From Candidatus Avisuccinivibrio pullicola (lineage in GTDB: Bacteria; Pseudomonadota; Gammaproteobacteria; Enterobacterales; Succinivibrionaceae): a stretch of DNA of 64,000 bases. Where the stretch lies: positions 1,386-65,385 of the forward strand of contig DVOQ01000047.1 of NCBI GenBank assembly GCA_018713485.1. Reading direction: 5' to 3'. Shown here piece after piece: positions 3,539 to 14,710 of this stretch; position 1 is the stretch's first letter, and every line of letters starts with the position of its first letter. The position numbers and the translations under genes are program-made. The notes below the pieces were generated by a model that was not told the origin of the DNA, ran no database searches, and saw only the letters and a list, made by a program, of their open reading frames with translations.

Positions 3539-5074
3539 ATGGACTGGACCGGTGGCTACGTAACCGACATTCTCTACACTTACGGTTACTACTCTGAATT
3601 AAATCCCCTGAACGCACGCTTTCTGTGCCTTGTCAACGGTATCGCCTGCAGGAAAGAGTTTAAAAACGCCTGTGAGCTGGGCTTCGGTCAGGGCATGAGC
3701 ATCAACGTTCACGCCTGTTCCTCGAAGACGCACTGGTATGGCACGGACTTTAATCCCTCGCAGGTGGATTTTGCCAGGAGCCTTGCCCTGGACGCAGAGT
3801 TTACGGTTCATCTTTACGATGATTCCTTTGAGGATTTCGTCAATAATTCCGAGTTGCCGCAGTTTGACTTTATCGCCCTGCACGGGATCTGGTCCTGGGT
3901 TAACGACGCCGCGCGTGAGGCAATTCTCACCTTTATCCGCAAAAAGCTGACTGTAGGCGGCGTGCTCTACATTTCCTATAACGTAAACCCGGGCTTCCTG
4001 TCGCTGTTGCCCCTGCGCCATCTCGTCAAGCGCCATGCAGATCTGAACGGAGCCCCTCAGGGCAAGGAGCAGGCGGTGAAGGACAGCCTGACCTTCATTG
4101 ACCGTCTCTTTGCCTGCAATCCGCGCTACCTGACGCAAAATCCTCTCGTACAGGCGCAGTTCAGTAAGCTTGCCGGCAACGATCCCCATTACATCGCCCA
4201 TGAGTTCTTAAACGAACACTGGGATTTATGGCACTTTGACGAGCTTGCCGCCACGCTTGAGCAGGCCAAGGTGCAGTTTGCGGTCAGCGCGACGGTCAGT
4301 GAGAACATTGACAGCATCCATTTAAGCAAGGAGCAGCGTGCGGAACTTGCCGCCATTAAGGACCGTGATTTCCGTGAGACGGTGCGCGATTTCTTCTTAA
4401 ACACGCGCTTCAGACGCGATTACTTCATCAAGGGCGTGCGTCAGCTGACGCAGGATGAGCAGCGTGAGCAGCTGCTCTCCTTCCCCGTCATTCTGTTAGA
4501 GCCCCTGTCGCTCTTTAAGTATGAAACGCAGGGAACTCTGGGGCAGATTAAACTGGTAGGCGAGCTCTATGAGCCCATTCTCAAGGTACTCTCCGACTAC
4601 GCTCCACATACCCTGGGCGAAATTCTCGAGCGTACCGCTTCCGCGGGAGTGAACTACGGCTCCCTGGTGTCTGCCATCCTCATTCTCATGGGCAAGGGCT
4701 CGGTACGCGCCGCACAGAGTTATGACGAGGCGCTCGTCAGACAGTGTCAGCGCCTTAACGGCCGCATCCTAAGCCGCGCCACGGGGAGGGACGCATTAGA
4801 CGTCCTGGCCTCTCCCGTCATCGGCGGCGGTATCGGGGTCTCGCAGATGCAGCAGCTGTTAATCCTCGGCGCGGATTCAGGCACCATTCCCCTTGAAACC
4901 GATCCTTTAGCCCGGTATCTTGTGACCGTCCTGACGCAGATCGGTGCTACTGTCACGGTTAAGGACCGATCTCTTCCCTCTGACTCTCCCGAGGGCATGA
5001 AGGAGGCCCTGCTGCAGGCTGAGCGCTTCCTTGGCATGTTGCCTGTCTACCGTGCCTTGAAGTTATTGGAGTAA
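3539..5074 (+). CDS. Class I SAM-dependent methyltransferase with a long C-terminal regulatory-type domain
   Basis: Motif I ELGFGQG and the N-terminus WTGGYVTDILYTYGYYSELNP, typical of the methyltransferase plus methyltransferase-regulatory-domain family (recognition only). The substrate is unknown. Confidence 0.7.
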   Translation: MDWTGGYVTDILYTYGYYSELNPLNARFLCLVNGIACRKEFKNACELGFGQGMSINVHACSSKTHWYGTDFNPSQVDFARSLALDAEFTVHLYDDSFEDFVNNSELPQFDFIALHGIWSWVNDAAREAILTFIRKKLTVGGVLYISYNVNPGFLSLLPLRHLVKRHADLNGAPQGKEQAVKDSLTFIDRLFACNPRYLTQNPLVQAQFSKLAGNDPHYIAHEFLNEHWDLWHFDELAATLEQAKVQFAVSATVSENIDSIHLSKEQRAELAAIKDRDFRETVRDFFLNTRFRRDYFIKGVRQLTQDEQREQLLSFPVILLEPLSLFKYETQGTLGQIKLVGELYEPILKVLSDYAPHTLGEILERTASAGVNYGSLVSAILILMGKGSVRAAQSYDEALVRQCQRLNGRILSRATGRDALDVLASPVIGGGIGVSQMQQLLILGADSGTIPLETDPLARYLVTVLTQIGATVTVKDRSLPSDSPEGMKEALLQAERFLGMLPVYRALKLLE

Positions 5075-5647
5075 AGCAAGAGTTAGCTCTGGGATCCGCC
5101 CCGTTCCTCTAACAATGATTCATGTGTTAATGGTGCAGGTTAGTGATTTTTGCGAGTTTTTAGGCTTCTCTTTTATACAACTCGCAGGTGTTTATCCGAT
5201 TATCATAAATCCTGCACTTCTAATGGCATTAATTCTCCTTTCTTGCCTACGTTAAGGTATGCTTGATACGTTATGCGTAATTTTATCAAGAGTTAAAAAC
5301 CGCTTACTTTTGACATTGCTTGCGTTATGTGACATGACCATAAAAATGCACTTAGGTGAAAGTAACTGATACCATATGGTTTTTGTATTAACAGAACCAA
5401 AATATACAGGATTGATTCAAAAGATGAAAATCAAAGAGCGCTCTGGATTGCATTAGTAAGGTAATTTTAATAACATCGCACTTGGTACGGTATAATGAGA
5501 TTAGAGGGTCGGAGGAATAAGAAACTAATTTCGGCTCTTTAATTGTGCAGAACGAGATGCATCAGAACTCACTCCCATTCTGCAATGCAATTCTTCTGAA
5601 ATCCATCTGAGGAAGTGCTTTAGCCAAAAGTCTTTCTCGATGTGTGA

Positions 5648-6655
5648 ATGAAGAGATTGGTTCAAAAACATCTCTACTGGAGCAAGCCGGATATGCCATT
5701 TCTGGAAAAACTGGATGTACTGGAAGAAGGAATCTTAAAGTACAATGCGGCTTTGCTTAATATTCTCCTTAAAGATAGAACCACTGAAAAAAATATTATC
5801 TGGGCAACCTCTGACTACAGCTATCTGGGGGAACGCTTTGCGCCTACAGATCAAATCCTTCCTAGTGTCATCACCGGCAGACACTCCAAGGTAATTCAGC
5901 CCCGATCTGCTAAGGCATTAGAGAAGCAGATTTTGCGCACCAGGGAAAAGGCAGAGGTTTTTACCCCTTCATGGATTTGCAATGCACAGAATAATCTTAT
6001 CGACGACGAATGGTTTGGTCACAGTGGATCTTTCAATACAGAGCTCTCAAACAGCTGGACAGTTAATCCGAAGAAGATTAGCTTCCCGAAAGATAAAAGG
6101 CGCGACTGGAAAAACTATGTGGATGCGCGCAGGTTGGAAATAGCCTGTGGTGAGGCTCCTTATCTGGTGAGCCGATACGATACGGTGACGGCAGAGATCA
6201 TCGATCTCCCATCTAGAATTGGCTTGCTGGATCGCAAACTGCGTGTAGTCAATGAGAATGCCTCCGATGAAAAGGAATGGCTGAAATGGGCTTTTCGCGC
6301 CTTTGAGAGTATTTACGGTTTTGAGTATCAGGGAGATAACCTTCTCATTGCCAGAGAGAATTTGCTCTATACCTTTATTGATAATCTAAGATATGTATTA
6401 AAACGCGACCCTACCATTAATGAACTGCAAAAGATAGCGACCATCATCTCATGGAATTTGTGGCAAATGGATGGAACCACCTATAGGCCACCGCTTTATG
6501 CACTGCAAAGACAAGGTTATCAAGCCTCAATTTTTGATTCGTATGAAGAAACTGAGATGAAGATTCTTTGCTTAGAGAGCACTCCGTGTAAAATTAAAGA
6601 CTGGCGCACCAAAGAGATCGTGCAATATTATTCTCTGATCAAAGGGTATAAGTAA
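5648..6655 (+). CDS. MTase-like protein carrying only N-terminal-half (SAM-binding side) motifs; partner of the 1332-aa fusion
   Basis: KAEVFTPSWICNAQNN (motif X-like FTP at 5960-5968), RRLEIACGEAPYLVSRYD (motif I-like at 6143-6166) and YGFEYQGDNLLIARENL (motif II/III-like). No (D/N)PP(Y/F/W) motif; the expected position reads IISWNLWQMDG. The stop overlaps the next start (TAATG at 6653-6657). Confidence 0.6.
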   Translation: MKRLVQKHLYWSKPDMPFLEKLDVLEEGILKYNAALLNILLKDRTTEKNIIWATSDYSYLGERFAPTDQILPSVITGRHSKVIQPRSAKALEKQILRTREKAEVFTPSWICNAQNNLIDDEWFGHSGSFNTELSNSWTVNPKKISFPKDKRRDWKNYVDARRLEIACGEAPYLVSRYDTVTAEIIDLPSRIGLLDRKLRVVNENASDEKEWLKWAFRAFESIYGFEYQGDNLLIARENLLYTFIDNLRYVLKRDPTINELQKIATIISWNLWQMDGTTYRPPLYALQRQGYQASIFDSYEETEMKILCLESTPCKIKDWRTKEIVQYYSLIKGYK

Positions 6656-9600
6656 TGAAATCCCGATTTGGTAATGCTTTTGAGTATAAGCTGATTTACG
6701 TTTTTGCTATCCATGATGATGCCCATCAGGGTCTTCTGAAGATTGGTGAAACGACCATCAGACCGGAGACTTCTATTGATTCCCTGAGTCCCAACAGCGA
6801 AGAACTAAAAGATGCGGCACTTAAACGCATCCGGCAGTACACCTCTACCGCCGGAATTGCGGTAGAGCTTTTGTATACGGAACTTGCAACTCGTACGGTT
6901 AAAAATGAAAAAGGCCAGATCGTAATCGAAGCTTTTCACGATCATGATGTCCACCGTGTTCTCTTAAATTCCAATATTGAGCGCAAAAAACCTCATGGGG
7001 TCGGTGACAAGGGCGGGATCGAATGGTTTGAGGTGGATTTAGACACCGTCATAAGAGCCATTGAGGCAGTTAAGAAAAGTCAGACTAATCTGTCAGGTAT
7101 AGCCCTTCCTAAAGACCAGAAGCCTGTTCCTATAGTCTTCCGCCCTGAACAACAAGAAGCCATTGATAAAACCTTCAAGCATTTTAAAACCGGAGATCGC
7201 ATGCTCTGGAATGCCAAGATGCGTTTTGGCAAGACACTTACAGCACTGCAGTTGATCAAGAAATCCGGCTTTAAAAAGACCATAATCGTCACTCACAGGC
7301 CAGTAGTGGATGATGGCTGGTACAAAGATTTCAATAAAATTTTCACAGATAAGGAAATAATTTACGGTTCAAGAGGTCACGGAAATGATGATGTTGAAAA
7401 GCTGATCGACAGCGGCAAGGATTTCATTTACTTTGCATCACTGCAGGATCTCAGGGGGTCCTCAGCTGTAGGCGGCAAATTTGATAAGAACGATGCGGTG
7501 TTTCAAGAACACTGGGATCTGGTGATCGTTGACGAAGCCCATGAAGGAACTACCACTGACCTAGGTGATGAGGTCATCAAAAATATCGTTAAGGAAGGTG
7601 ATGGTTACCACACCAAATTGCTTGCTCTTTCTGGTACGCCTTTCAATATTGCCAGAGACTATGATGAAGAAAGCACCTTTGTCTGGGACTATGTCATGGA
7701 GCAGAGGAGCAAAGCACAATGGTATGAAGAGCACTTTGGTGATTCAAACCCTTATGATGAACTGCCTGAGCTTAATATCTATACCTACGACCTAGGAAAA
7801 ATTCTTACGGATAAAAGCTATGTGGAGCTTGAGGATAAGGCCTTTAATTTCCGCGAGTTCTTCAGAGTATGGACTGGAGACATCCGTTATGACCATAAGG
7901 AGATGCCTCTTGGGGCGCAGACAGGGGATTTTGTACACGAAGTAGATGTTAAGAGTTTTCTTAATCTGATAACAAGGGATGATCCTGACAGCTATTATCC
8001 GTATGCCAACGATGAATACCGTGCTCTGTTCCGTCATGCACTGTGGGTGGTACCGGGGGTAAAAGAGGCTCGGGCCTTAAGTCGGCTTCTTAAACAACAT
8101 CCTGTTTTTGGAATGTTTGATATCGTCAATGTAGCCGGTGATGGTGATGAAGAGGAAAGTTCCGATGATGCTCTTAAGAAGGTACGCGATGCCATTGATT
8201 TCGCTGGTAGTGACGGCTATACCATTACTCTGTCCTGCGGCAGGTTAACCACCGGAGTCACGGTTCCAGAATGGACTGCTGTATTTATGCTCGCAGGCTC
8301 ATACTCCACCTCGGCTGCCAATTACCTGCAGACCATTTTCCGTGTCCAGTCACCCTGTAACAAGGATGGAAGAGTTAAGCGCGGTTGTTACGCGTTCGAT
8401 TTTGCCCCTGACCGTACGCTGAAGATGGTGGCTGAAGCAGCGGCTCTGTCTTCCAAGACTAAGGCTGGTAAAACCAAGCCATCTGATCGCGCCATCATGA
8501 GCGAGTTTTTGAACTACTGTTCTGTTATTGCGGTAAGCGGTACGAAGATGAAACCCTACGACACTAGCCGCTTGCTGCAGCAATTAAAGAGAGCTTACGC
8601 AGAGCGCGCAGTATTGAGCGGTTTTGATGACAACAATCTGTATAACGATGAACTGCTGCAGCTAGATAACTTAGAGTATGAGCGTTTTAAAAAACTTGGA
8701 AAGATAGTAGGCTCGTCTAGGCCTACTCAGAGAATTGATGAAATCGATATCAATGATCAGGGCTTTACGGATGAAAAGCACGAGCATAACGCCAAGGATG
8801 ATAAAAAACCGCCACGCAACCTGTCCGAAGAAGAAAAAAAGCTCCGACAGGAGCAAAAGGAAAGGCAAAAGAAGAGAAAAGAAGCCATTTCCATCTTGCG
8901 CGGGATATCCATCCGCATGCCGCTTATGATTTATGGTGCCAACATCCCCATGGATGAAGATATCACCATGGAAAGTTTGATAAAGATTGTGGATGATACC
9001 TCCTGGGACGAGTTCATGCCTAATGGTGTCACAAAGGAGATGTTCCGAGATTTTATCAGGTATTATGACCCTGATGTCTTTGTGGCCGCCAGTCGCAGGA
9101 TCCGTGCTATTGCAGAGAACGCCGACTCCTATTCACCTTTGGAACGGGTCAAGAAGATCACGGAGCTTTTCTCCTACTTCAAAAATCCGGATAAAGAAAC
9201 TGTCCTGACTCCGTGGCGTGTGGTCAATATGCACCTTAGCGACTGTCTGGGTGGTTACGACTTTTTTGATGACCACCACGAAAAAGTCTTGAGTGAACCC
9301 CGCTTTGTCGATCGCGGTAAGGAAACCGCGGATACCTTTGCCAATCCTAAGGCCCGCATTCTTGAGATTAATTCCAAGACAGGACTTTATCCCCTGTACG
9401 TAACGTACAGTATATTCCGCAGTCGCTGTGCTTTTTGCACCGAAGAACTGACTGATGACAAACAACGGGAACTTTGGGATAGCACAGTAAAGGAAAACGT
9501 CTTCGTGCTCTGTAAGACCCCCATGGCGCGACAGATTACCATTCGCACACTTATCGGATATAGAAATGTAACTGTAAATGCTGTTTACTTCAACCATCTG

Positions 9601-10653
9601 ATCGACACTATTAAGAATGACTTACAGCACTTTACCGCTAAGCTTCACAAATCTAGCTTCTGGAACAAAGGAGACAGTCCAATCATGCAGTTTAACGCAG
9701 TAGTGGGTAATCCACCTTATCAGATCCCTGATGGGGGAAGCAAAGCCAGTGCCACGCCCGTCTACAATCATTTTGTTGATTTGGCGCGCAACCTTAAACC
9801 TGACTATGTTTCGATGATCATCCCTGCACGCTGGTACAGTGCCGGTCGTGGCTTAGAAAAGTTTCGCGAAAGCATGCTGCAGGATCCCCGCATTCAGAAG
9901 CTGTTTGACTTCTCTGACTCTAATGACTGCTTCAAAGGCGTAGATATTGCTGGCGGGATCTGTTATTTCTTATGGAACAGGCTTTACGATGGTACTGGCG
10001 GTTGCCGTGTGCTTACCAATCACAATGGCTCAATTCAGCAAACGCTACGCAAACTCAATGAGAACAGCATTTTTGTCCGTCATCCTCAGGCGCTGACCAT
10101 TCTCAATAAGGTAAAACAGCATACTAAAGAGTTTTATGCATCCAGAGTAAGCCCAAGAAAGCCGTTTGGCCTAACAACCAATGTAGTTCCAACTAAGGAT
10201 GGAGATCTGATACTGCGCTGCAATAAAGGAACTGGTCCGTTTAGAAGAGAATTGGTAACGGGGTCTTTAGAGTGGGTCGACAAATGGAAAGTTATCATTT
10301 CGTACTTATCCTACGACCATGCTGGTCGGGCAGATAAAAACGGTCAACGGCGAATCTTATCTACTATCGAAATACTGCCTCCTCATGCTGTGTGCACTGA
10401 GACTTATCTTGTGGTTGATGTGTTTGATGATGAAACCAGTGCAAGGAATCTTCTTCAGTATCTTAAGACTAAGTTTGTGCGCTTCATGTTGTCACTGTTG
10501 GTAACAACGCAACATATTACCAAATCAAGTTTTGCTGATGTACCAATTTTGGACATGTCTAAGGTTTGGACGGATGATGAGCTGTATACCAGATATAAAC
10601 TTACAGATGAAGAGATTAGTTTTATTGAGAGCATGATAAAACCGATGTTGTAA
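6655..10653 (+). CDS. 1332-aa fusion: T5orf172/GIY-YIG-like domain + DEAH SF2 helicase + charged coiled coil + gamma-class N6-adenine MTase-like module + C-terminal domain
   Basis: N-terminus LIYVFAI..LLKIGETT..HDVHRVL..IEWFEVD. Helicase motifs MRFGKT (7225-7236), VDEAHEG (DEAH 7531-7542), LSGTP, GRLTTGVTVPEW and QTIFRVQSP. K/E-rich stretch at 8752-8889. MTase-like motifs ETVLTPWRVVNMH, ILEINSKTGLYPLY and VVGNPPYQ (NPPY 9709-9720), followed by IIPARWYSAGRGLEKFR..GGICYFLW. The protein ends LTDEEISFIESMIKPML. Confidence 0.75.
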   Translation: MKSRFGNAFEYKLIYVFAIHDDAHQGLLKIGETTIRPETSIDSLSPNSEELKDAALKRIRQYTSTAGIAVELLYTELATRTVKNEKGQIVIEAFHDHDVHRVLLNSNIERKKPHGVGDKGGIEWFEVDLDTVIRAIEAVKKSQTNLSGIALPKDQKPVPIVFRPEQQEAIDKTFKHFKTGDRMLWNAKMRFGKTLTALQLIKKSGFKKTIIVTHRPVVDDGWYKDFNKIFTDKEIIYGSRGHGNDDVEKLIDSGKDFIYFASLQDLRGSSAVGGKFDKNDAVFQEHWDLVIVDEAHEGTTTDLGDEVIKNIVKEGDGYHTKLLALSGTPFNIARDYDEESTFVWDYVMEQRSKAQWYEEHFGDSNPYDELPELNIYTYDLGKILTDKSYVELEDKAFNFREFFRVWTGDIRYDHKEMPLGAQTGDFVHEVDVKSFLNLITRDDPDSYYPYANDEYRALFRHALWVVPGVKEARALSRLLKQHPVFGMFDIVNVAGDGDEEESSDDALKKVRDAIDFAGSDGYTITLSCGRLTTGVTVPEWTAVFMLAGSYSTSAANYLQTIFRVQSPCNKDGRVKRGCYAFDFAPDRTLKMVAEAAALSSKTKAGKTKPSDRAIMSEFLNYCSVIAVSGTKMKPYDTSRLLQQLKRAYAERAVLSGFDDNNLYNDELLQLDNLEYERFKKLGKIVGSSRPTQRIDEIDINDQGFTDEKHEHNAKDDKKPPRNLSEEEKKLRQEQKERQKKRKEAISILRGISIRMPLMIYGANIPMDEDITMESLIKIVDDTSWDEFMPNGVTKEMFRDFIRYYDPDVFVAASRRIRAIAENADSYSPLERVKKITELFSYFKNPDKETVLTPWRVVNMHLSDCLGGYDFFDDHHEKVLSEPRFVDRGKETADTFANPKARILEINSKTGLYPLYVTYSIFRSRCAFCTEELTDDKQRELWDSTVKENVFVLCKTPMARQITIRTLIGYRNVTVNAVYFNHLIDTIKNDLQHFTAKLHKSSFWNKGDSPIMQFNAVVGNPPYQIPDGGSKASATPVYNHFVDLARNLKPDYVSMIIPARWYSAGRGLEKFRESMLQDPRIQKLFDFSDSNDCFKGVDIAGGICYFLWNRLYDGTGGCRVLTNHNGSIQQTLRKLNENSIFVRHPQALTILNKVKQHTKEFYASRVSPRKPFGLTTNVVPTKDGDLILRCNKGTGPFRRELVTGSLEWVDKWKVIISYLSYDHAGRADKNGQRRILSTIEILPPHAVCTETYLVVDVFDDETSARNLLQYLKTKFVRFMLSLLVTTQHITKSSFADVPILDMSKVWTDDELYTRYKLTDEEISFIESMIKPML

Positions 10654-10999
10654 GGTCTGCGGAAATGTTGCCGGATTTACTCTTGAGAGACGTTGTAGAA
10701 AGCGCTTCAAAGGACTGGATACATGTATCTTTGTATGTGCAGATGACTGACCCAGGAGAACGTCTCGTGTAGCTACGATAAAAAAGTAGAGCTTGAAGAC
10801 CGGCAATAGTTACTCGGTAAAGTATGTGCCTCTGAAATCGCGTAAGATTTCTTGAAATACGGTGGGGGATATAAGAGGGAGAGGCTAAAGAGAGAGTCAC
10901 GTATGCGATTTTCCTTCATCCACTTTCTTTTTGCAGCGGTTATAATGGCTCACGTTTTTACGTGTTTTATACCGTGTTTATGAGTTAAAGAGGACAGCG

Positions 11000-12187
11000 A
11001 TGACCGACGTTAATGCGGCATTACGTGAGATCTCAAGAGGTGTCTCTGAGATCATCCCCGTTGAGGAATTAAAGGCCAAGCTCGAAAGCGGCCGTCAGCT
11101 TATCGTCAAGTTAGGCATGGATCCCACCGCCCCTGATATCCACCTCGGGCATACCGTGATCCTGAACAAGCTGCGCACCTTCCAGGAATTAGGCCACAAG
11201 GTGGTGCTGCTTATCGGTGACTTTACCGCCGCAGTGGGCGATCCCTCAGGTAAGAACGCCACCCGCCCGCAGTTATCCCGTGAGCAGATCATGCACAATG
11301 CTGAGACCTACGCGCAGCAGGCCTTCAAGGTGCTTGACCGCAGCAAGACCGAGATCCGCTATAACTCCGAGTGGTTATCGAAGTTAGGGGCCGAAGGCAC
11401 CATCCGCCTCGCCTCCAAGTTAACCGTGGCGCGAATGTTAGAGCGTGATGATTTCACCAAGCGCTATCAGTCAGGGCAGCCGATTGCCATTCACGAGTTC
11501 CTGTATCCGCTCTTCCAGGGTTACGACAGCGTGGCGCTGCACGCGGATATCGAGTTAGGCGGCACCGATCAGAAATTTAACCTGCTCATGGGCCGTGAAC
11601 TGCAGAAGGACGCGGGCATGGAGCCGCAGTGTGTGCTCATGATGCCGCTGTTAGTGGGTCTTGACGGCGTCAAGAAGATGTCCAAGTCGGCCGGTAATTA
11701 CATTGGCGTCCACGATGAGCCTCAGGATATGTTCGGCAAGATCATGTCCTTAAGCGATGAGCTGATGTGGAATTACTACGATCTGCTGTCCTTCAGGGCC
11801 GTGGACGAGATTGAGGATCTAAAGCGTCGCTGTGCCTCGGGCGAAATGAACCCGCGCGACGCCAAGCTGGAGTTGGGCCGCGAGATCGTCGCCCGCTATC
11901 ACGGGCAGGAAGCCGGCGATGCCGCCGTGACAGCCTTCTTAAATCAGTTTGCCAAGGGCGCTCTGCCTGAGGACATGCCGGAGGTGACGCTGGAGCGCCT
12001 GCCGCTTGCCAATCTCTTAAAGGAAGCCGGTCTGTGCGAGACCACTTCCGAGGCCCTGCGCATGATTAGGCAGCACGCGGTGCGTGTTGATGGCGAGGCC
12101 GTTGAGAGCAAGGAGGCTCAAATTGCCGATGGCACTCACGTTTTTCAGGTCGGAAAACGCCGCTTTGCCAGGATCACCGTAAAATAG
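11000..12187 (+). CDS. tyrS: Tyrosine--tRNA ligase
   Basis: HIGH-type motif (PDIHLGH), KMSKS motif and a C-terminal S4-like domain. The length is 395 aa. Confidence 0.95.
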
Positions 12188-13048: not shown

Positions 13049-14710
13049 ATGAGGGGTGTTGCATATGAGTTGCCGTTAGGAGAAACCTGCTTCAGGCGTC
13101 TGAGGCAGTCAGGAACCAGGATCTATGTCGATAAGACCGCTCTGATTTACAGACTGGTGAACGAAGACCGGTTCTGTCTGTTAACGAGGCCGCGCCGCTT
13201 TGGTAAAAGCTTACTGCTCTCTACAATAGAAAGTCTCTTTCGTGATGGACTTAGGTATTTTACGGATCTGGAAATTGCAAAACTCTGGAAAGAGGAATTA
13301 TGTTGCGTACTGTATCTCGATCTAAGCGGGATTAATCTAAGCTCAGTGCAGTCCCTTAACCGTTCCCTGGTATCCCTGTTAAGACAGGCTGCAGAACAGA
13401 ATGGACTAAATACCGCAACTTTGCCGGATGAAGATCCGATTACGGCTCTGAACGAATTTGTGCGTCTGTCGCTTAGCCGCGACGTGGTGATTTTAGTGGA
13501 TGAGTATGACTGTCCTGTGCGGGCCCAGTTTGCGGATCCGGCACTGCGTGCTGACGTACTCAATGTCATGAAAGCTTTTTTCACAACGGTTAAAAGCCTG
13601 GCTAAGTACTGCCGTTTCATGATGTTCAGCGGTATTACACGCAATACCCTAAGCGATGAGTATTCATGTCTGAATTTCCTTACCGATGTAAGCCTCGATC
13701 CTAAATACAGCACTCTCCTCGGTTACACGGAAGAGGAACTGCAGCAGTATTTTGCTCCGTACCTCAGGCATATTCAGGAAATCTATCAGCTCAGCGATAA
13801 TGAGGTCATCAGTAAAATCCGCTTCTTTTATGATGGGTACTCGTTTGACTGTTTTGGAAAGCAGAAGGTTTACAACAACTGGTCTATTTTAAGGCTCTTT
13901 AGAGATCCGCTGTGCTCGTTTGGTGAGTACTGGTATGAAAGCGGGGATCTGAGTGAGTATCTAAAAGATTATTTTCTTGAGAAAAGTCTTTCCAGTGAGG
14001 GGCCGCTGCTCTCTAAAATGCTCGACAGTCTGCATCAGGATACCTACATCAGTATCTCCTCGCTTAAGTTTGTTCCCGAGTTTAACGAGGTGAATGCCCC
14101 GGCTCTTTTGTTTTATCTCGGCTATCTGACCATAAAGGACGCGTTCGACAGAAAATATCCGCAGCGTCTGGTACTGACCTTGCCTAATCACGAAATCGAG
14201 TCCTCCTTAGCTAAACTTTACACGAGGGTGATGTATCGCAGAGATCCTGAGGAGGTGGCAGGCTTTTTTGATGCACTGCTGGGAACGCTGCACGACTACG
14301 CTCATCTGTCAGAACTTGCCTCCAGACTGGAGCTGCTCTACAACACCTATTCGTATGATTCTCAGATTTACCGTAAGGAAGCCCTGTTAAGGGACGCCCT
14401 GTATGTGGGATGCTGTATGCACCTTATTCCGGTATGCAGAGAAAAGGTCAATGCTAAGGGACGCTCGGATCTGGAAATCAGCCTCAACGGGGAGAGAGTG
14501 GTCTTTGAGTTTAAGGTAGCATCTACGCCAGACAGGGTCGCAGCTAAACTTTCTGAGGCTTCGCAGCAGATGGAGGAGCGCTCTTACGGAGAGGAGCTTC
14601 CTGAGGCCAGACTTACCCGCTATTCCATAGTGGTGTGCTCGGCAACCCGTAAAGTGGCTGCGATTACAGCCCGTCAGGGGGGCGAAGTTTTAGGCCGCTA
14701 TCTGGCCTGA
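13049..14710 (+). CDS. Predicted AAA-ATPase-like N-terminal domain fused to a PD-(D/E)xK nuclease-like C-terminal domain
   Basis: IYVDKTALIYRLV..LLTRPRRFGKSLLLSTIESLF is the signature of the 'predicted AAA-ATPase' family. The C-terminal GRSDLEISLNGERVVFEFK fits a PD-(D/E)xK core. The gene is lower in GC than its neighbours. Confidence 0.75.
   Translation: MRGVAYELPLGETCFRRLRQSGTRIYVDKTALIYRLVNEDRFCLLTRPRRFGKSLLLSTIESLFRDGLRYFTDLEIAKLWKEELCCVLYLDLSGINLSSVQSLNRSLVSLLRQAAEQNGLNTATLPDEDPITALNEFVRLSLSRDVVILVDEYDCPVRAQFADPALRADVLNVMKAFFTTVKSLAKYCRFMMFSGITRNTLSDEYSCLNFLTDVSLDPKYSTLLGYTEEELQQYFAPYLRHIQEIYQLSDNEVISKIRFFYDGYSFDCFGKQKVYNNWSILRLFRDPLCSFGEYWYESGDLSEYLKDYFLEKSLSSEGPLLSKMLDSLHQDTYISISSLKFVPEFNEVNAPALLFYLGYLTIKDAFDRKYPQRLVLTLPNHEIESSLAKLYTRVMYRRDPEEVAGFFDALLGTLHDYAHLSELASRLELLYNTYSYDSQIYRKEALLRDALYVGCCMHLIPVCREKVNAKGRSDLEISLNGERVVFEFKVASTPDRVAAKLSEASQQMEERSYGEELPEARLTRYSIVVCSATRKVAAITARQGGEVLGRYLA

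What the first reader, a model, noticed from the sequence alone, without database searches (positions are those of the whole stretch)
5648..6655. Translationally coupled partner that looks like half an MTase: SAM-binding-side motifs but no catalytic NPPY
The 335-aa protein has AEVFTPSWICNAQNN (motif X-like), LEIACGEAPYLVSRYD (motif I-like, closer to the canonical ACGxGxFL than the large protein's own ILEINSKTGLYPLY) and YGFEYQGDNLLIARENL (motif II/III-like). Where motif IV would follow it reads IISWNLWQMDG.

Its segment layout parallels aa 848-990 of the downstream giant protein (TP-W..N, then about 45 aa, then a motif I-like stretch), so the two look paralogous. The stop and start overlap (TAATG).

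Inference: it is either a trans-acting SAM-binding or regulatory subunit that complements the degenerate motif I of the large protein, or a catalytically dead MTase paralogue acting as a DNA-recognition or self-immunity subunit.
Basis: partly seen in the sequence, partly recalled or inferred. Interest (0 to 1): 0.7.

Follow-up and report, generated by a model that had tools for sequence, protein, structure and literature searches.

The report
Stand-alone SAM-binding half of split methyltransferase
The small gene encodes only the cofactor-binding half of a DNA adenine methyltransferase; the matching catalytic and DNA-reading half sits at the end of the neighbouring nuclease-helicase protein, and relatives carry the same three parts fused in other combinations, so this is a widespread restriction-modification system built around a naturally split enzyme.

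Summary
ORF 5648-6655 (the real start is probably the ATG at 5693, giving 320 aa) carries motif X, I and II/III-like segments and no NPPY. Its stop overlaps the start of a 1332-aa protein (TAATG).

It is neither a dead full-length MTase nor a close paralogue of the neighbour; BLASTP and hhalign find no similarity. It is the N-terminal lobe ("S") of an Eco57I-like gamma-class adenine MTase.

In many relatives the same domain (47% identity) is fused to an NPPY+TRD half ("C"). C is homologous to aa 1011-1331 of the large protein here (31% identity, E 7e-46).

Three layouts recur:
- S + R-C, where R is the T5orf172 nuclease, SF2 helicase and a second, divergent N lobe. This is the window's layout and the majority.
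- S + C + R as three genes.
- S-C + R.

A jumbo phage and some other contigs carry S and C without R.

C (NPPY+TRD) is exchanged like a specificity cassette, while S co-varies with R.

Best reading: S is an obligate, constant SAM-binding subunit that works with the C module.

Unresolved: the large protein has its own N lobe, and AlphaFold packs it with C into a complete MTase. S may therefore be a second, regulatory SAM lobe.

This is a new variant of Type ISP/IIG-like R-M systems.

The parts
5075..5647 (+). AT-rich upstream intergenic region of the island. It holds a promoter-like site at 5467-5496 and no HTH controller gene.
   Evidence: GC is 37.7% against 56% in the flanks, and tblastn with three HTH_26 controllers from related loci finds nothing significant. 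Promoter-like TTAATA-18-TATAAT.
5648..6655 (+). S: stand-alone N-terminal (SAM-binding) lobe of an Eco57I-like gamma-class adenine MTase. 335 aa from 5648; the likely true start is 5693 (320 aa).
   Evidence: PADLOC PDLC03390 'MTase_II' matches over the full length, E 7e-113. No hit in Pfam, NCBIfam, PHROGs or PDB sequences. 47% identical to aa 7-319 of the 669-aa single-chain MTase P0251.
5951..5995 (+). Motif X-like AEVFTPSWICNAQNN (aa 102-116).
   Evidence: A102-P107, W109, C111, N112 and Q114-N116 are invariant in 32 homologues. A helix follows in the AF2 model.
6134..6181 (+). Motif I: LEIACGEAPYLVSRYD (aa 163-178), beta-1 plus loop.
   Evidence: E164, C167-Y172 and S175-D178 are invariant. 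Strand 164-167 in the AF2 model. Pattern LE.AC...P[FY]L as in M.TaqI motif I (from memory, not tested).
6314..6364 (+). Motif II: YGFEYQGDNLLIARENL (aa 223-239), beta-2 with the acidic residue E226 and the following helix.
   Evidence: Y223, E226, Q228-D230, A235, R236 and N238 are invariant. Strand 222-226.
6443..6475 (+). IISWNLWQMDG (aa 266-276): conserved helix end plus short strand with D275. One candidate for motif III; not a motif IV.
   Evidence: S268, W269, N270 and W272-D275 are invariant. The same segment lies about 75 aa before NPPY in fused relatives.
6587..6628 (+). C-terminal hairpin CKIKDWRTKEIVQY (aa 314-327). The second candidate for beta-3/motif III (D318-W319). In fused relatives it directly precedes MKFD..GNPPY.
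   Evidence: C314, I316, W319 and R320 are invariant. Strands 314-318 and 323-327. P0251 junction.
6653..6657 (+). TAATG stop/start overlap between S and L (translational coupling).
   Evidence: Of 16 related loci where the L start maps to an ATG, 13 overlap the S stop by 1-11 nt.
6655..10653 (+). L: 1332-aa fusion of R (nuclease, motor, second N lobe) and C (NPPY+TRD).
6694..7071 (+). T5orf172 (GIY-YIG-related) putative nuclease domain, aa 14-139.
   Evidence: Pfam PF10544 E 0.0083 here. Found in 21 of 23 full-length homologues, best E 1.3e-5; MUG113 in 8.
7135..8763 (+). SF2 helicase-like ATPase (ResIII, DEAH), aa 161-703.
   Evidence: PF04851 E 3.6e-16. PHROG 16 DNA helicase. 31% identical to the R protein of S-C + R systems over aa 24-703.
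8860..9678 (+). Helical linker plus N_b, the large protein's own divergent N lobe (aa 736-1008): TPWRVVNMH, ILEINSKTGLYPLY, VFVLCKTP, YFNHL.
   Evidence: AF2 strands b1-b3. Pfam Eco57I profile 1-66, E 0.0076. Homologous to the C-terminal tail of stand-alone R proteins. Conservation in 119 homologues.
9685..10653 (+). C module: catalytic lobe (NPPY at 9709-9720, aa 1019-1022) plus TRD, aa 1011-1332. This is the partner half of S in fused and split relatives.
   Evidence: 31% identical to P0251 aa 325-668. 39% identical to phage PTm1 gp277. PADLOC PDLC03375. hhalign E 2.7e-80 with a sharp boundary. Varies independently of the other modules.

Best explanation
The 320-335-aa protein (S) is the free-standing N-terminal lobe of a gamma-class, Eco57I-like N6-adenine DNA methyltransferase. 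It contains a small N-terminal region, motif X, and beta-1 to beta-3 with motifs I-III, which together form the S-adenosylmethionine pocket side. The chain stops just before beta-4/NPPY.

S is the constant subunit of a three-module, ATP-dependent restriction-modification system:
- S.
- R: a T5orf172 nuclease, an SF2 translocase and a second, divergent N lobe (N_b).
- C: the NPPY catalytic lobe plus the target-recognition domain.

In this genome C is fused to the end of R, giving the 1332-aa protein. S is made in step with it by translational coupling.

Proposed mechanism (inferred): S binds SAM and docks on the large protein, so that its motifs I-III and the NPPY loop of C form the methyl-transfer site. 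This gives site-specific adenine methylation of host DNA. Unmodified sites recognised by the TRD license the helicase-nuclease part to translocate and cut, as in Type ISP enzymes.

What is shown and what is inferred:
- Shown: the homology, the module boundaries, the alternative fusions, the co-occurrence, and the conservation of the SAM-side residues.
- Inferred: physical assembly, which N lobe closes the active site, adenine methylation, and restriction.
For: 1. S lacks any motif IV. Its motif X, I and II residues are invariant across phyla.
2. Among the 150 best representatives at 50% identity, 45 carry the S domain fused to a C half. These are typically about 630-710 aa with Pfam Eco57I directly after the S part.
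3. P0251 aa 7-319 matches S (47% identity, E 6e-93) and aa 325-668 matches L 1011-1331 (31% identity, E 7e-46). The join is ...CKIINW...KR|MKFDFVIGNPPYQ. PADLOC splits P0251 into the same two models that hit S and the L C-terminus.
4. In 9 of 80 GTDB loci and 13 of 80 IMG/VR loci, S and C are separate adjacent genes followed by R. A free C begins at beta-4 (Pfam Eco57I profile 73-171 from residue 1), so it cannot fold or bind SAM alone.
5. Tenacibaculum phage PTm1 carries C (gp277), an HTH gene and S (gp279) with no R. L104 and L165 carry fused S-C without R, and L041 carries S and C as separate genes without R. S plus C is therefore a self-sufficient unit.
6. S is upstream of an L-type gene in 58 of 80 GTDB loci, and 9 of 11 loci found with L as query have S upstream (one of the other two is cut by the contig end). 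The start/stop overlap is conserved.
7. Motif II of the large protein's own N lobe has invariant C-K-T where gamma-class MTases carry the ribose-binding acid, whereas S keeps E226. The window's N_b also lacks the motif III acid: FNHL against F[DE]DL in about 90% of 119 homologues.
8. hhalign of the fused family against the L family aligns only the C half, E 2.7e-80, and the alignment begins a few residues before the conserved Met.
Against: - AlphaFold2 folds L aa 736-1332 (pLDDT 85, pTM 0.81) with its own b1-b3 ahead of b4-NPPY. The model matches complete gamma-class MTases (CamA, BrxX/PglX, M.BseCI, M.TaqI) at E 1e-13 to 1e-8 over about 550 columns.
- Pfam Eco57I covers L 947-1093 as one continuous domain, profile 1-171. 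The large protein may therefore be a self-sufficient MTase, leaving S without a free C lobe to bind.
- N_b motif I (LEINSK[TS]GLYPLY) is invariant, and its motif III acid is kept in about 90% of homologues. That is as expected for a working SAM lobe.
- S identity co-varies with R (r = 0.71 with the helicase) and not with C (r = 0.05-0.16).
- The S model has no significant structural match in the PDB.
- No assembly, SAM binding or methylation was or could be tested here.
Confidence: 0.55

Rival explanations
1. The large protein is a self-contained Type ISP-like enzyme whose own N lobe (N_b) plus C form the active MTase. S is an accessory SAM-binding subunit. It could be a truncated MTase-like partner that stimulates or gates methylation or restriction (functionally like DNMT3L with DNMT3A), a SAM sensor, or the docking partner of N_b.
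For: - The AF2 model of L 736-1332 is a complete MTase fold with high confidence and has strong Foldseek matches to full gamma-class MTases.
- There is a continuous Pfam Eco57I hit.
- N_b motifs are strictly conserved in 119 homologues.
- N_b is also retained at the end of R in the layouts where C is fused to S or free. Both N lobes are therefore always present, and one of them must do something other than pair with C.
- S co-varies with R rather than with C.
Against: - S-C fusions and S + C pairs without R show that S is a competent partner of C.
- S keeps every canonical SAM-side residue, whereas N_b lacks the motif II acid in all members and, in this window, the motif III acid too.
- A purely regulatory role does not explain why a free C gene sits next to S in the three-gene layout.
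Confidence: 0.3
2. S is an evolutionary relic: the remnant of a companion full-length MTase (like M.Eco57I beside RM.Eco57I) that lost its NPPY+TRD half and has no function now.
For: Full-length S-C proteins exist in sister systems, so loss of the C half is a plausible origin.
Against: - At least 8000 clusters, with 54-67% identity among the 120 best hits, which include several phyla, and a mean column identity of 57%.
- Intact ORFs with a conserved overlapping start in dozens of species.
- Invariant SAM-side residues.
- Present in at least 567 GTDB species and 498 viral contigs.
Relics do not persist like this.
Confidence: 0.03
3. S is a complete MTase, or another enzyme such as the nuclease, with an unrecognised catalytic motif.
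For: - PADLOC labels the family 'MTase_II' and NCBI labels it 'restriction endonuclease subunit M'. Some plasmid records call it 'restriction endonuclease'.
- 4 of 120 homologues happen to have an NPPY-like tetrapeptide in the loop after WQMDG.
Against: - The chain ends at the position where fused relatives continue into b4-NPPY and motifs V-VIII.
- The loop tetrapeptide is not conserved; only P282 is invariant.
- There is no nuclease-family hit in Pfam, NCBIfam, PHROGs or PADLOC.
- The AF2 model has only three core strands plus hairpins.
Confidence: 0.02

Closest known systems
[quoted passage not shown]
   Same: The large protein has the same domain order: nuclease, SF2 helicase-like ATPase, helical linker, gamma-class adenine MTase, TRD (PMC4666363 abstract). 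An ATP-driven, translocating R-M enzyme with hemimethylation is the expected mode of action.
   Different: - The nuclease is T5orf172/GIY-YIG-like, not Mrr PD-(D/E)xK.
- No sequence match to any solved structure, LlaGI/LlaBIII included.
- A second gene product (S) always accompanies it.
- The NPPY+TRD part is a separable module found free or fused to S in relatives.
Type IIG systems of the Eco57I kind (RM fusion plus a separate M), which is how PADLOC/REBASE-derived models label these genes
   Same: Eco57I-family MTase domain with a C-terminal TRD in the large protein, and a second 'M' gene beside it.
   Different: - The large protein carries a helicase motor, which Type IIG enzymes lack.
- The companion 'M' is only half an MTase: it has no motif IV-VIII and no TRD.
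Natural two-polypeptide DNA MTases M.AquI and M.EcoHK31I
   Same: The methyltransferase motifs are distributed over two gene products (PMC3404938). In relatives of this locus, S and C are two adjacent genes that correspond colinearly to one single-chain enzyme.
   Different: - Those are C5-cytosine MTases split after motif VIII, or with only motif IX detached.
- Here an N6-adenine gamma-class enzyme is cut between motifs III and IV, inside the Rossmann sheet.
- The catalytic half is fused to a helicase-nuclease that brings a second N lobe.
Type I R-M (HsdM/HsdS/HsdR): a separate exchangeable specificity module
   Same: A constant SAM-binding/MTase part and a constant motor-nuclease, combined with a variable, recombining specificity module. 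Here the TRD median identity is 34%, against 49-57% for S, the nuclease, the helicase and N_b, and it varies independently of them.
   Different: The exchangeable module here includes the catalytic NPPY lobe itself, not only a TRD subunit. There is no HsdS-like two-TRD protein.
Catalytically incomplete MTase-like partners (DNMT3L with DNMT3A; METTL14 with METTL3)
   Same: A truncated or inactive MTase-fold protein acts as an obligate partner of an active one. This is the analogy for the rival reading. It comes from general knowledge and was not tested here.
   Different: Those partners have lost SAM binding. S keeps all SAM-side motifs and lacks the catalytic side instead.

Membership tests
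Gamma-class N6-adenine DNA MTase, Eco57I family (PF07669) | SAM-binding lobe with motifs X, I, II and III in that order | tested here: met
   AEVFTP (aa 102), LEIACGEAPY (163), YGFE (223), and WQMD (272) or KDW (317). The core residues are invariant. 47% identical to the N half of PF07669-bearing proteins.
Gamma-class N6-adenine DNA MTase, Eco57I family (PF07669) | Catalytic motif IV (D/N/S)PP(Y/F/W) on beta-4 | tested here: not met
   No such motif in S, and it is absent in 116 of 120 homologues. In the other 4 it occurs in a non-conserved loop. The chain ends before the position of NPPY in fused relatives.
Gamma-class N6-adenine DNA MTase, Eco57I family (PF07669) | C-terminal target recognition domain | tested here: not met
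   S ends at aa 335. The TRD homologue is L aa 1111-1332.
Gamma-class N6-adenine DNA MTase, Eco57I family (PF07669) | Match to the Pfam model above the gathering score | tested here: not met
   S gets no Pfam hit even at E <= 10. L scores 96 bits.
Gamma-class N6-adenine DNA MTase, Eco57I family (PF07669) | SAM binding and methyl transfer to adenine N6 | not testable with these tools
   Needs ITC/DSF and methylome sequencing.
Naturally split (two-polypeptide) DNA MTase | Two neighbouring genes carry complementary, non-overlapping motif sets that are colinear with a single-chain relative | tested here: inconclusive
   Met for S (motifs X, I-III) plus L aa 1011-1332 (motifs IV-VIII and TRD) against P0251. 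Met cleanly in three-gene relatives and in phage PTm1. In this window, however, the C half is preceded in the same chain by another N lobe.
Naturally split (two-polypeptide) DNA MTase | Activity requires both polypeptides | not testable with these tools
   Needs single-gene versus two-gene constructs.
Type ISP R-M enzyme | One polypeptide with nuclease, SF2 ATPase, coupler, gamma-class MTase and TRD | tested here: met
   T5orf172 at aa 14-139, ResIII at 161-330 (the helicase region extends to about 703), a helical region, Eco57I at 947-1093, and a TRD to 1332.
Type ISP R-M enzyme | Mrr-family PD-(D/E)xK nuclease | tested here: not met
   The N-terminal domain is T5orf172/MUG113-like.
Type ISP R-M enzyme | Single-polypeptide enzyme with no further subunit | tested here: not met
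   S is a conserved, translationally coupled upstream gene. Whether it is functionally required was not tested.
Type IIG R-M (the PADLOC label for L) | REase-MTase fusion without an NTP-dependent motor | tested here: not met
   ResIII/DEAD helicase domain with a DEAH box.

The most novel reading that the evidence does not exclude
The system always carries two alternative SAM-side lobes (S, and N_b at the end of the helicase-nuclease) but only one catalytic/TRD lobe, and nature fuses that lobe to either of them. The most novel reading is a lobe-swap switch. When the NPPY+TRD module pairs with S, which has full SAM-binding motifs, the complex methylates. When it pairs with N_b, which has no motif II acid, the same DNA-reading module is coupled to the motor-nuclease and signals restriction. 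An intra-fold exchange of half a Rossmann domain would then decide between self-modification and attack. The long disordered linker (aa 285-309) before the S hairpin would permit this even in fused S-C forms.
Probability: 0.12. Interest if true: 0.85.

Novelty: new variant of a known kind. Interest (0 to 1): 0.62.

Why it matters
If S really completes the active site in trans, this would be, as far as I know, the first natural N6-adenine MTase split inside its Rossmann fold. The known natural split MTases in the literature found here are C5 enzymes cut elsewhere.

It would also be abundant: at least 567 GTDB species in many phyla, 498 viral contigs, and plasmids of lactic acid bacteria and enterococci.

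The same three modules occur free, fused S-C, or fused R-C. That gives a living series of the fission/fusion intermediates postulated for the circular permutation of DNA MTases.

It also suggests a design principle: a constant SAM lobe and motor, plus an exchangeable catalytic/TRD cassette that changes specificity.

In practice, annotation pipelines call S a complete 'MTase' or 'restriction endonuclease', and R-M predictors would count it as a separate Type II methylase. Methylome-to-gene assignments for these loci are therefore likely to be wrong.

The unexplained surplus N lobe makes a long-standing question directly testable: how methylation and restriction are partitioned in single-complex R-M enzymes.

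Tried and rejected
Comparing S with the large protein:
- BLASTP of S against L found nothing (best E 0.52).
- hhalign of the S family against the L family found nothing (probability 0.05%).
- hhalign of the fused S-C family against the L family aligned only the C half.
- Recent paralogy of S and L aa 760-1010 is therefore rejected.

Searching known families and structures with S:
- Pfam, NCBIfam and PHROGs gave no hit, even at E <= 10 for Pfam.
- PDB sequence searches with S, with the S-C profile, with L 816-1332 and with the L profile gave nothing meaningful.
- Foldseek of the S model against the PDB gave nothing significant. The best E was about 1, with gamma-class MTases BsaXI, DrdV, PglX and LlaGI only at E 3-6.
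- Against BFVD, only fragments of the same family and weak adenine-MTase hits appeared.
- Structural proof that S is an MTase N lobe is therefore weak. The argument rests on sequence homology to fused relatives.

Other checks:
- An HTH controller gene upstream, as in Firmicutes relatives: none in the window.
- Flanking direct or inverted repeats, or a tRNA, as island borders: none convincing.
- MANTIS/Gao_RL is a different four-gene system.
- The idea that 'YRPPLY' after WQMDG is a degenerate motif IV is rejected, because only one proline is conserved and fused relatives have a true NPPY further on.
- A preprint on MTase classification notes 13 'MTase fragments' in the REBASE gold standard, but its tables were not available.

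Full report
**1. What is in the sequence**

ORF 5648-6655 (+) encodes 335 aa. All four quoted segments are there, at aa 102, 163, 223 and 266. No (D/N/S)PP(Y/F/W/H) motif exists in the protein. The TAA stop shares a base with the ATG of ORF 6655-10653, which encodes 1332 aa.

The first 15 codons are not conserved. Homologues and GenBank HIV15293.1 begin at M16, the ATG at 5693, which has a GGAG 10 nt upstream.

The two genes lie in a GC-poor island (38-45% against 56% in the flanks). The island sits between a SAM-MTase-like gene with a MethyTransf_Reg domain (3539-5074) and tyrS (11000-12187). The organism is the chicken-gut MAG Candidatus Avisuccinivibrio pullicola.

**2. The small protein (S) as a family**

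No Pfam, NCBIfam, PHROG or PDB-sequence match exists. The only library hit is PADLOC PDLC03390 'MTase_II', over the full length, E 7e-113.

The family is very large. A profile search of 1.84 billion representatives found 2237 proteins. At least 567 GTDB species in many phyla carry a relative, as do 498 IMG/VR contigs. The phyla include Bacillota, Bacteroidota, Actinomycetota, Pseudomonadota, Planctomycetota, Synergistota, Fusobacteriota, Spirochaetota, Mycoplasmatota and Melainabacteria.

In 32 homologues the mean column identity is 57%, and the core residues of all four quoted segments are invariant.

The AF2 model (pLDDT 74, pTM 0.76) shows, in order:
- a helix after AEVFTP;
- a small hairpin;
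- beta-1 at LEIA;
- helices;
- beta-2 at IYGFE;
- two helices;
- a short strand at LWQ;
- a disordered loop (aa 285-309);
- a terminal hairpin, CKIKDW...EIVQY.

The model has no significant PDB neighbour.

**3. The large protein (L)**

Pfam gives T5orf172 (weak here, but present in 21 of 23 homologues), ResIII/DEAD helicase, and Eco57I MTase at aa 947-1093 with NPPY at aa 1019.

AF2 of aa 736-1332 (pLDDT 85, pTM 0.81) shows:
- a helical region;
- a motif-X helix (TPWRVVNMH);
- a hairpin;
- beta-1 (ILEI);
- beta-2 (VFVLC);
- beta-3;
- beta-4 (AVVG-NPPY);
- the rest of the fold and a TRD.

Foldseek matches complete gamma-class MTases (CamA, BrxX/PglX, M.BseCI, M.TaqI) at E 1e-13 to 1e-8. L therefore has the Type ISP domain order with a different nuclease. 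It also has its own N lobe, which I call N_b.

**4. Is S a paralogue of L aa 760-1110?**

BLASTP finds nothing. hhalign of the two family profiles gives a probability of 0.05%. Anchoring on the shared C half does not extend the alignment into the N lobes.

Both are MTase N lobes. It is not detectable homology.

**5. The decisive observation: fused relatives**

Many representatives that hit the S profile are 630-710 aa long. Pfam places Eco57I, the profile half that contains NPPY, immediately after the S-like part.

For P0251 (669 aa):
- aa 7-319 match S aa 22-328 (47% identity, E 6e-93);
- aa 325-668 match L aa 1011-1331 (31% identity, E 7e-46);
- the junction is ...YCKIINWETKRSIKFFKGEKR|MKFDFVIGNPPYQ.

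PADLOC resolves P0251 into PDLC03390 (the S model) plus PDLC03375, a 348-aa 'MTase_II' model that also covers L 1011-1331.

S plus the last 320 residues of L (module C: NPPY lobe plus TRD) are therefore colinear with one complete MTase.

**6. Three layouts of the same modules**

The fused S-C genes are followed by a protein R of 1067-1121 aa with a ResIII domain. R is homologous to L aa 24-703 (31% identity, E 2e-78) and to L aa 736-923 (E 9e-5).

R ends with its own N lobe: QIFTPKKVVKEMVD, FIDLYMKSGLY, YGLAPTE, FDSL. It stops about 20 residues later, exactly where C begins in L. So L = R + C.

Census of the 80 best GTDB loci:
- 45 are S + R-C;
- 13 more have that layout but are cut by a contig end;
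- 9 are S + C + R as three genes;
- 3 are S + C only;
- 1 is S-C + R;
- 2 are S plus an R-like gene only;
- 5 have S at a contig end;
- 2 have S alone with room around it.

The best 80 viral contigs give 50, 13 and 5 for the three layouts. Among the top 150 representatives there are 103 S, 45 S-C, one S-N_b-C and one S-R fusion.

Starting from L instead, 9 of 11 loci have S directly upstream. One of the other two is cut, and one has none.

Where the L start could be placed on an ATG (16 loci), it overlaps the S stop by 1-11 nt in 13.

**7. S and C without R**

Tenacibaculum jumbo phage PTm1 carries three adjacent genes and no R:
- gp277, a C half of 344 aa that starts MKFDIIVGNPPYQ (39% identical to L 1011-1331, E 2e-72; Pfam Eco57I profile 73-171 from residue 1);
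- gp278, an HTH protein;
- gp279, an S homologue (48% identity).

L104 and L165 carry fused S-C with more than 4.5 kb downstream and no R. L041 carries S + C without R.

A C protein that starts at beta-4 cannot form a SAM pocket alone, and in these genomes the only N lobe available is S. This is the strongest comparative argument that S and C work together as a two-piece MTase.

**8. C is a cassette**

I compared 65 S + R-C loci with the window, module by module. Median identities are:
- S 49%;
- nuclease 48%;
- helicase 57%;
- N_b 56.5%;
- catalytic part of C 53.5%;
- TRD 34%.

S co-varies with the nuclease (r = 0.67), the helicase (r = 0.71) and N_b (r = 0.49), but not with C (r = 0.05 and 0.16). 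The two parts of C co-vary with each other (r = 0.69).

An example is L014 against L012. They have the same S, helicase and N_b identities to the window, but C is 79/68% in one and 52/31% in the other.

The NPPY+TRD module is therefore exchanged as a unit, at the same boundary where genes are fused or split. This also explains why S is so uniform: it carries no specificity.

**9. The open problem**

Every layout that includes R has two N lobes (S and N_b) and one C, and C is found covalently attached to either.

S keeps canonical SAM-side residues: E164, the CGEAPY loop, E226, and D275 or D318.

In 119 L homologues, N_b has an invariant LEINSK[TS]GLYPLY, an invariant C-K-T where the motif II acid should be, and F[DE]DL at motif III in about 90%. 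The window's own protein has the rare FNHL at motif III. The assignment of these residues to SAM contacts rests on my recollection of M.TaqI (E45, E71, D89) and was not tested here.

AF2 nevertheless packs N_b with C. Nothing I could run decides three questions: which N lobe closes the active site in this layout, whether the two alternate, or whether S and N_b pair with each other as the docking interface between M and R.

**10. Comparison with known systems**

- The domain order of L equals Type ISP (PMC4666363 abstract). The nuclease family differs. T5orf172 is listed among R-M nucleases in PMC4738411. There is also an extra subunit.
- PADLOC's 'Type IIG + Type II MTase' labels do not fit a helicase-bearing enzyme with a half-MTase partner.
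- The natural split MTases named in the literature I found are the C5 enzymes M.AquI and M.EcoHK31I, which are cut elsewhere (PMC3404938).
- A recent preprint notes 13 unexplained 'MTase fragments' in the REBASE gold standard.
- I found no description of this family's half nature or of its module permutations in six literature searches. That is not proof of absence.

**11. Verdict**

S is a trans-acting SAM-side half, not a dead paralogue and not a recognition subunit.
- It is a new variant of ATP-dependent R-M systems, built around a split, modular gamma-class MTase.
- Confidence: homology and modular architecture about 0.95; S as an obligate functional subunit about 0.9; S as the lobe that completes the catalytic site in this layout about 0.55.

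Noticed in passing
window 9589-9600 (L aa 979-982): The window's large protein has YFNHL at motif III of its own N lobe. Of 119 homologues, about 90% have F[DE]DL; N at the first position occurs in 2 and H at the second in 1. This particular copy may have a weakened second SAM site.
   Followed up: partly
window 9685-10653, and loci L012 and L014: The NPPY+TRD module varies independently of the rest of the system. L012 and L014 are alike in S, helicase and N_b, but their C modules are 52/31% and 79/68% identical to the window. This is recombinational exchange of a specificity cassette, flanked by the conserved GNPPYQ and the C-terminal LT..EI.FIESMIKPM.
   Followed up: partly
L093 (Tenacibaculum phage PTm1, NC_049340) 5567-7999: This jumbo phage carries the C half (gp277), an HTH gene (gp278) and the S half (gp279) but no helicase-nuclease. 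This looks like a phage-borne split orphan MTase, possibly self-protection against this kind of R-M system.
   Followed up: partly
L001/L005 7742-7970; protein P0076: Firmicutes versions have a 70-aa HTH_26 gene just upstream of S, resembling a C-protein controller, and in P0076 the HTH is fused to the N-terminus of S. The window has no such gene in its 573-bp upstream region.
   Followed up: partly
window 5075-10999: The two-gene cassette is a GC-poor island (38-45% against 56%) inserted between a MethyTransf_Reg-domain methyltransferase gene and tyrS. No tRNA, integrase or convincing flanking repeats were found.
   Followed up: partly
L145 (IMG/VR 3300029856_000001) 6001-8800: In this variant the helicase part of L is almost entirely missing: S is followed by a short N-terminal piece, N_b and C. 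P0247 (933 aa) similarly reads S-N_b-C in one chain, and P0274 reads S-R in one chain. Whether these are real deletions or fusions, or assembly artefacts, was not checked.
   Followed up: no
L092 (Pediococcus pentosaceus plasmid pSS1302) 7031-12105; plasmid hits H4-H15: More distant versions (39% identity) sit on plasmids of Enterococcus faecium, Pediococcus, Loigolactobacillus and Lactiplantibacillus. There S is annotated 'restriction endonuclease' and is followed by a 1410-aa Eco57I-domain protein. The Pediococcus plasmid has three matching places.
   Followed up: no
window 6482-6499 (S aa 279-284, YRPPLY); P0029 aa 266: The loop after WQMDG reads T-Y-x-x-P-[LY]. In 4 of 120 homologues it happens to spell an NPPY-like tetrapeptide (P0029: TYNPPYC). 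Only one proline is conserved, so this is probably coincidence.
   Followed up: partly
window 13049-14710: This ORF has a predicted AAA-ATPase_like domain (PF09820) and a PD-(D/E)XK_9 nuclease domain, 2.4 kb downstream of the island. It is unrelated to the finding as far as seen.
   Followed up: no
L059 and L066: These two GTDB loci have an intact S gene with about 7 kb on each side and no recognisable C or R. In L059 the neighbours include AAA_14/DUF4143 and HEPN_Apea proteins. These are either orphan S genes or partners too diverged to detect.
   Followed up: partly
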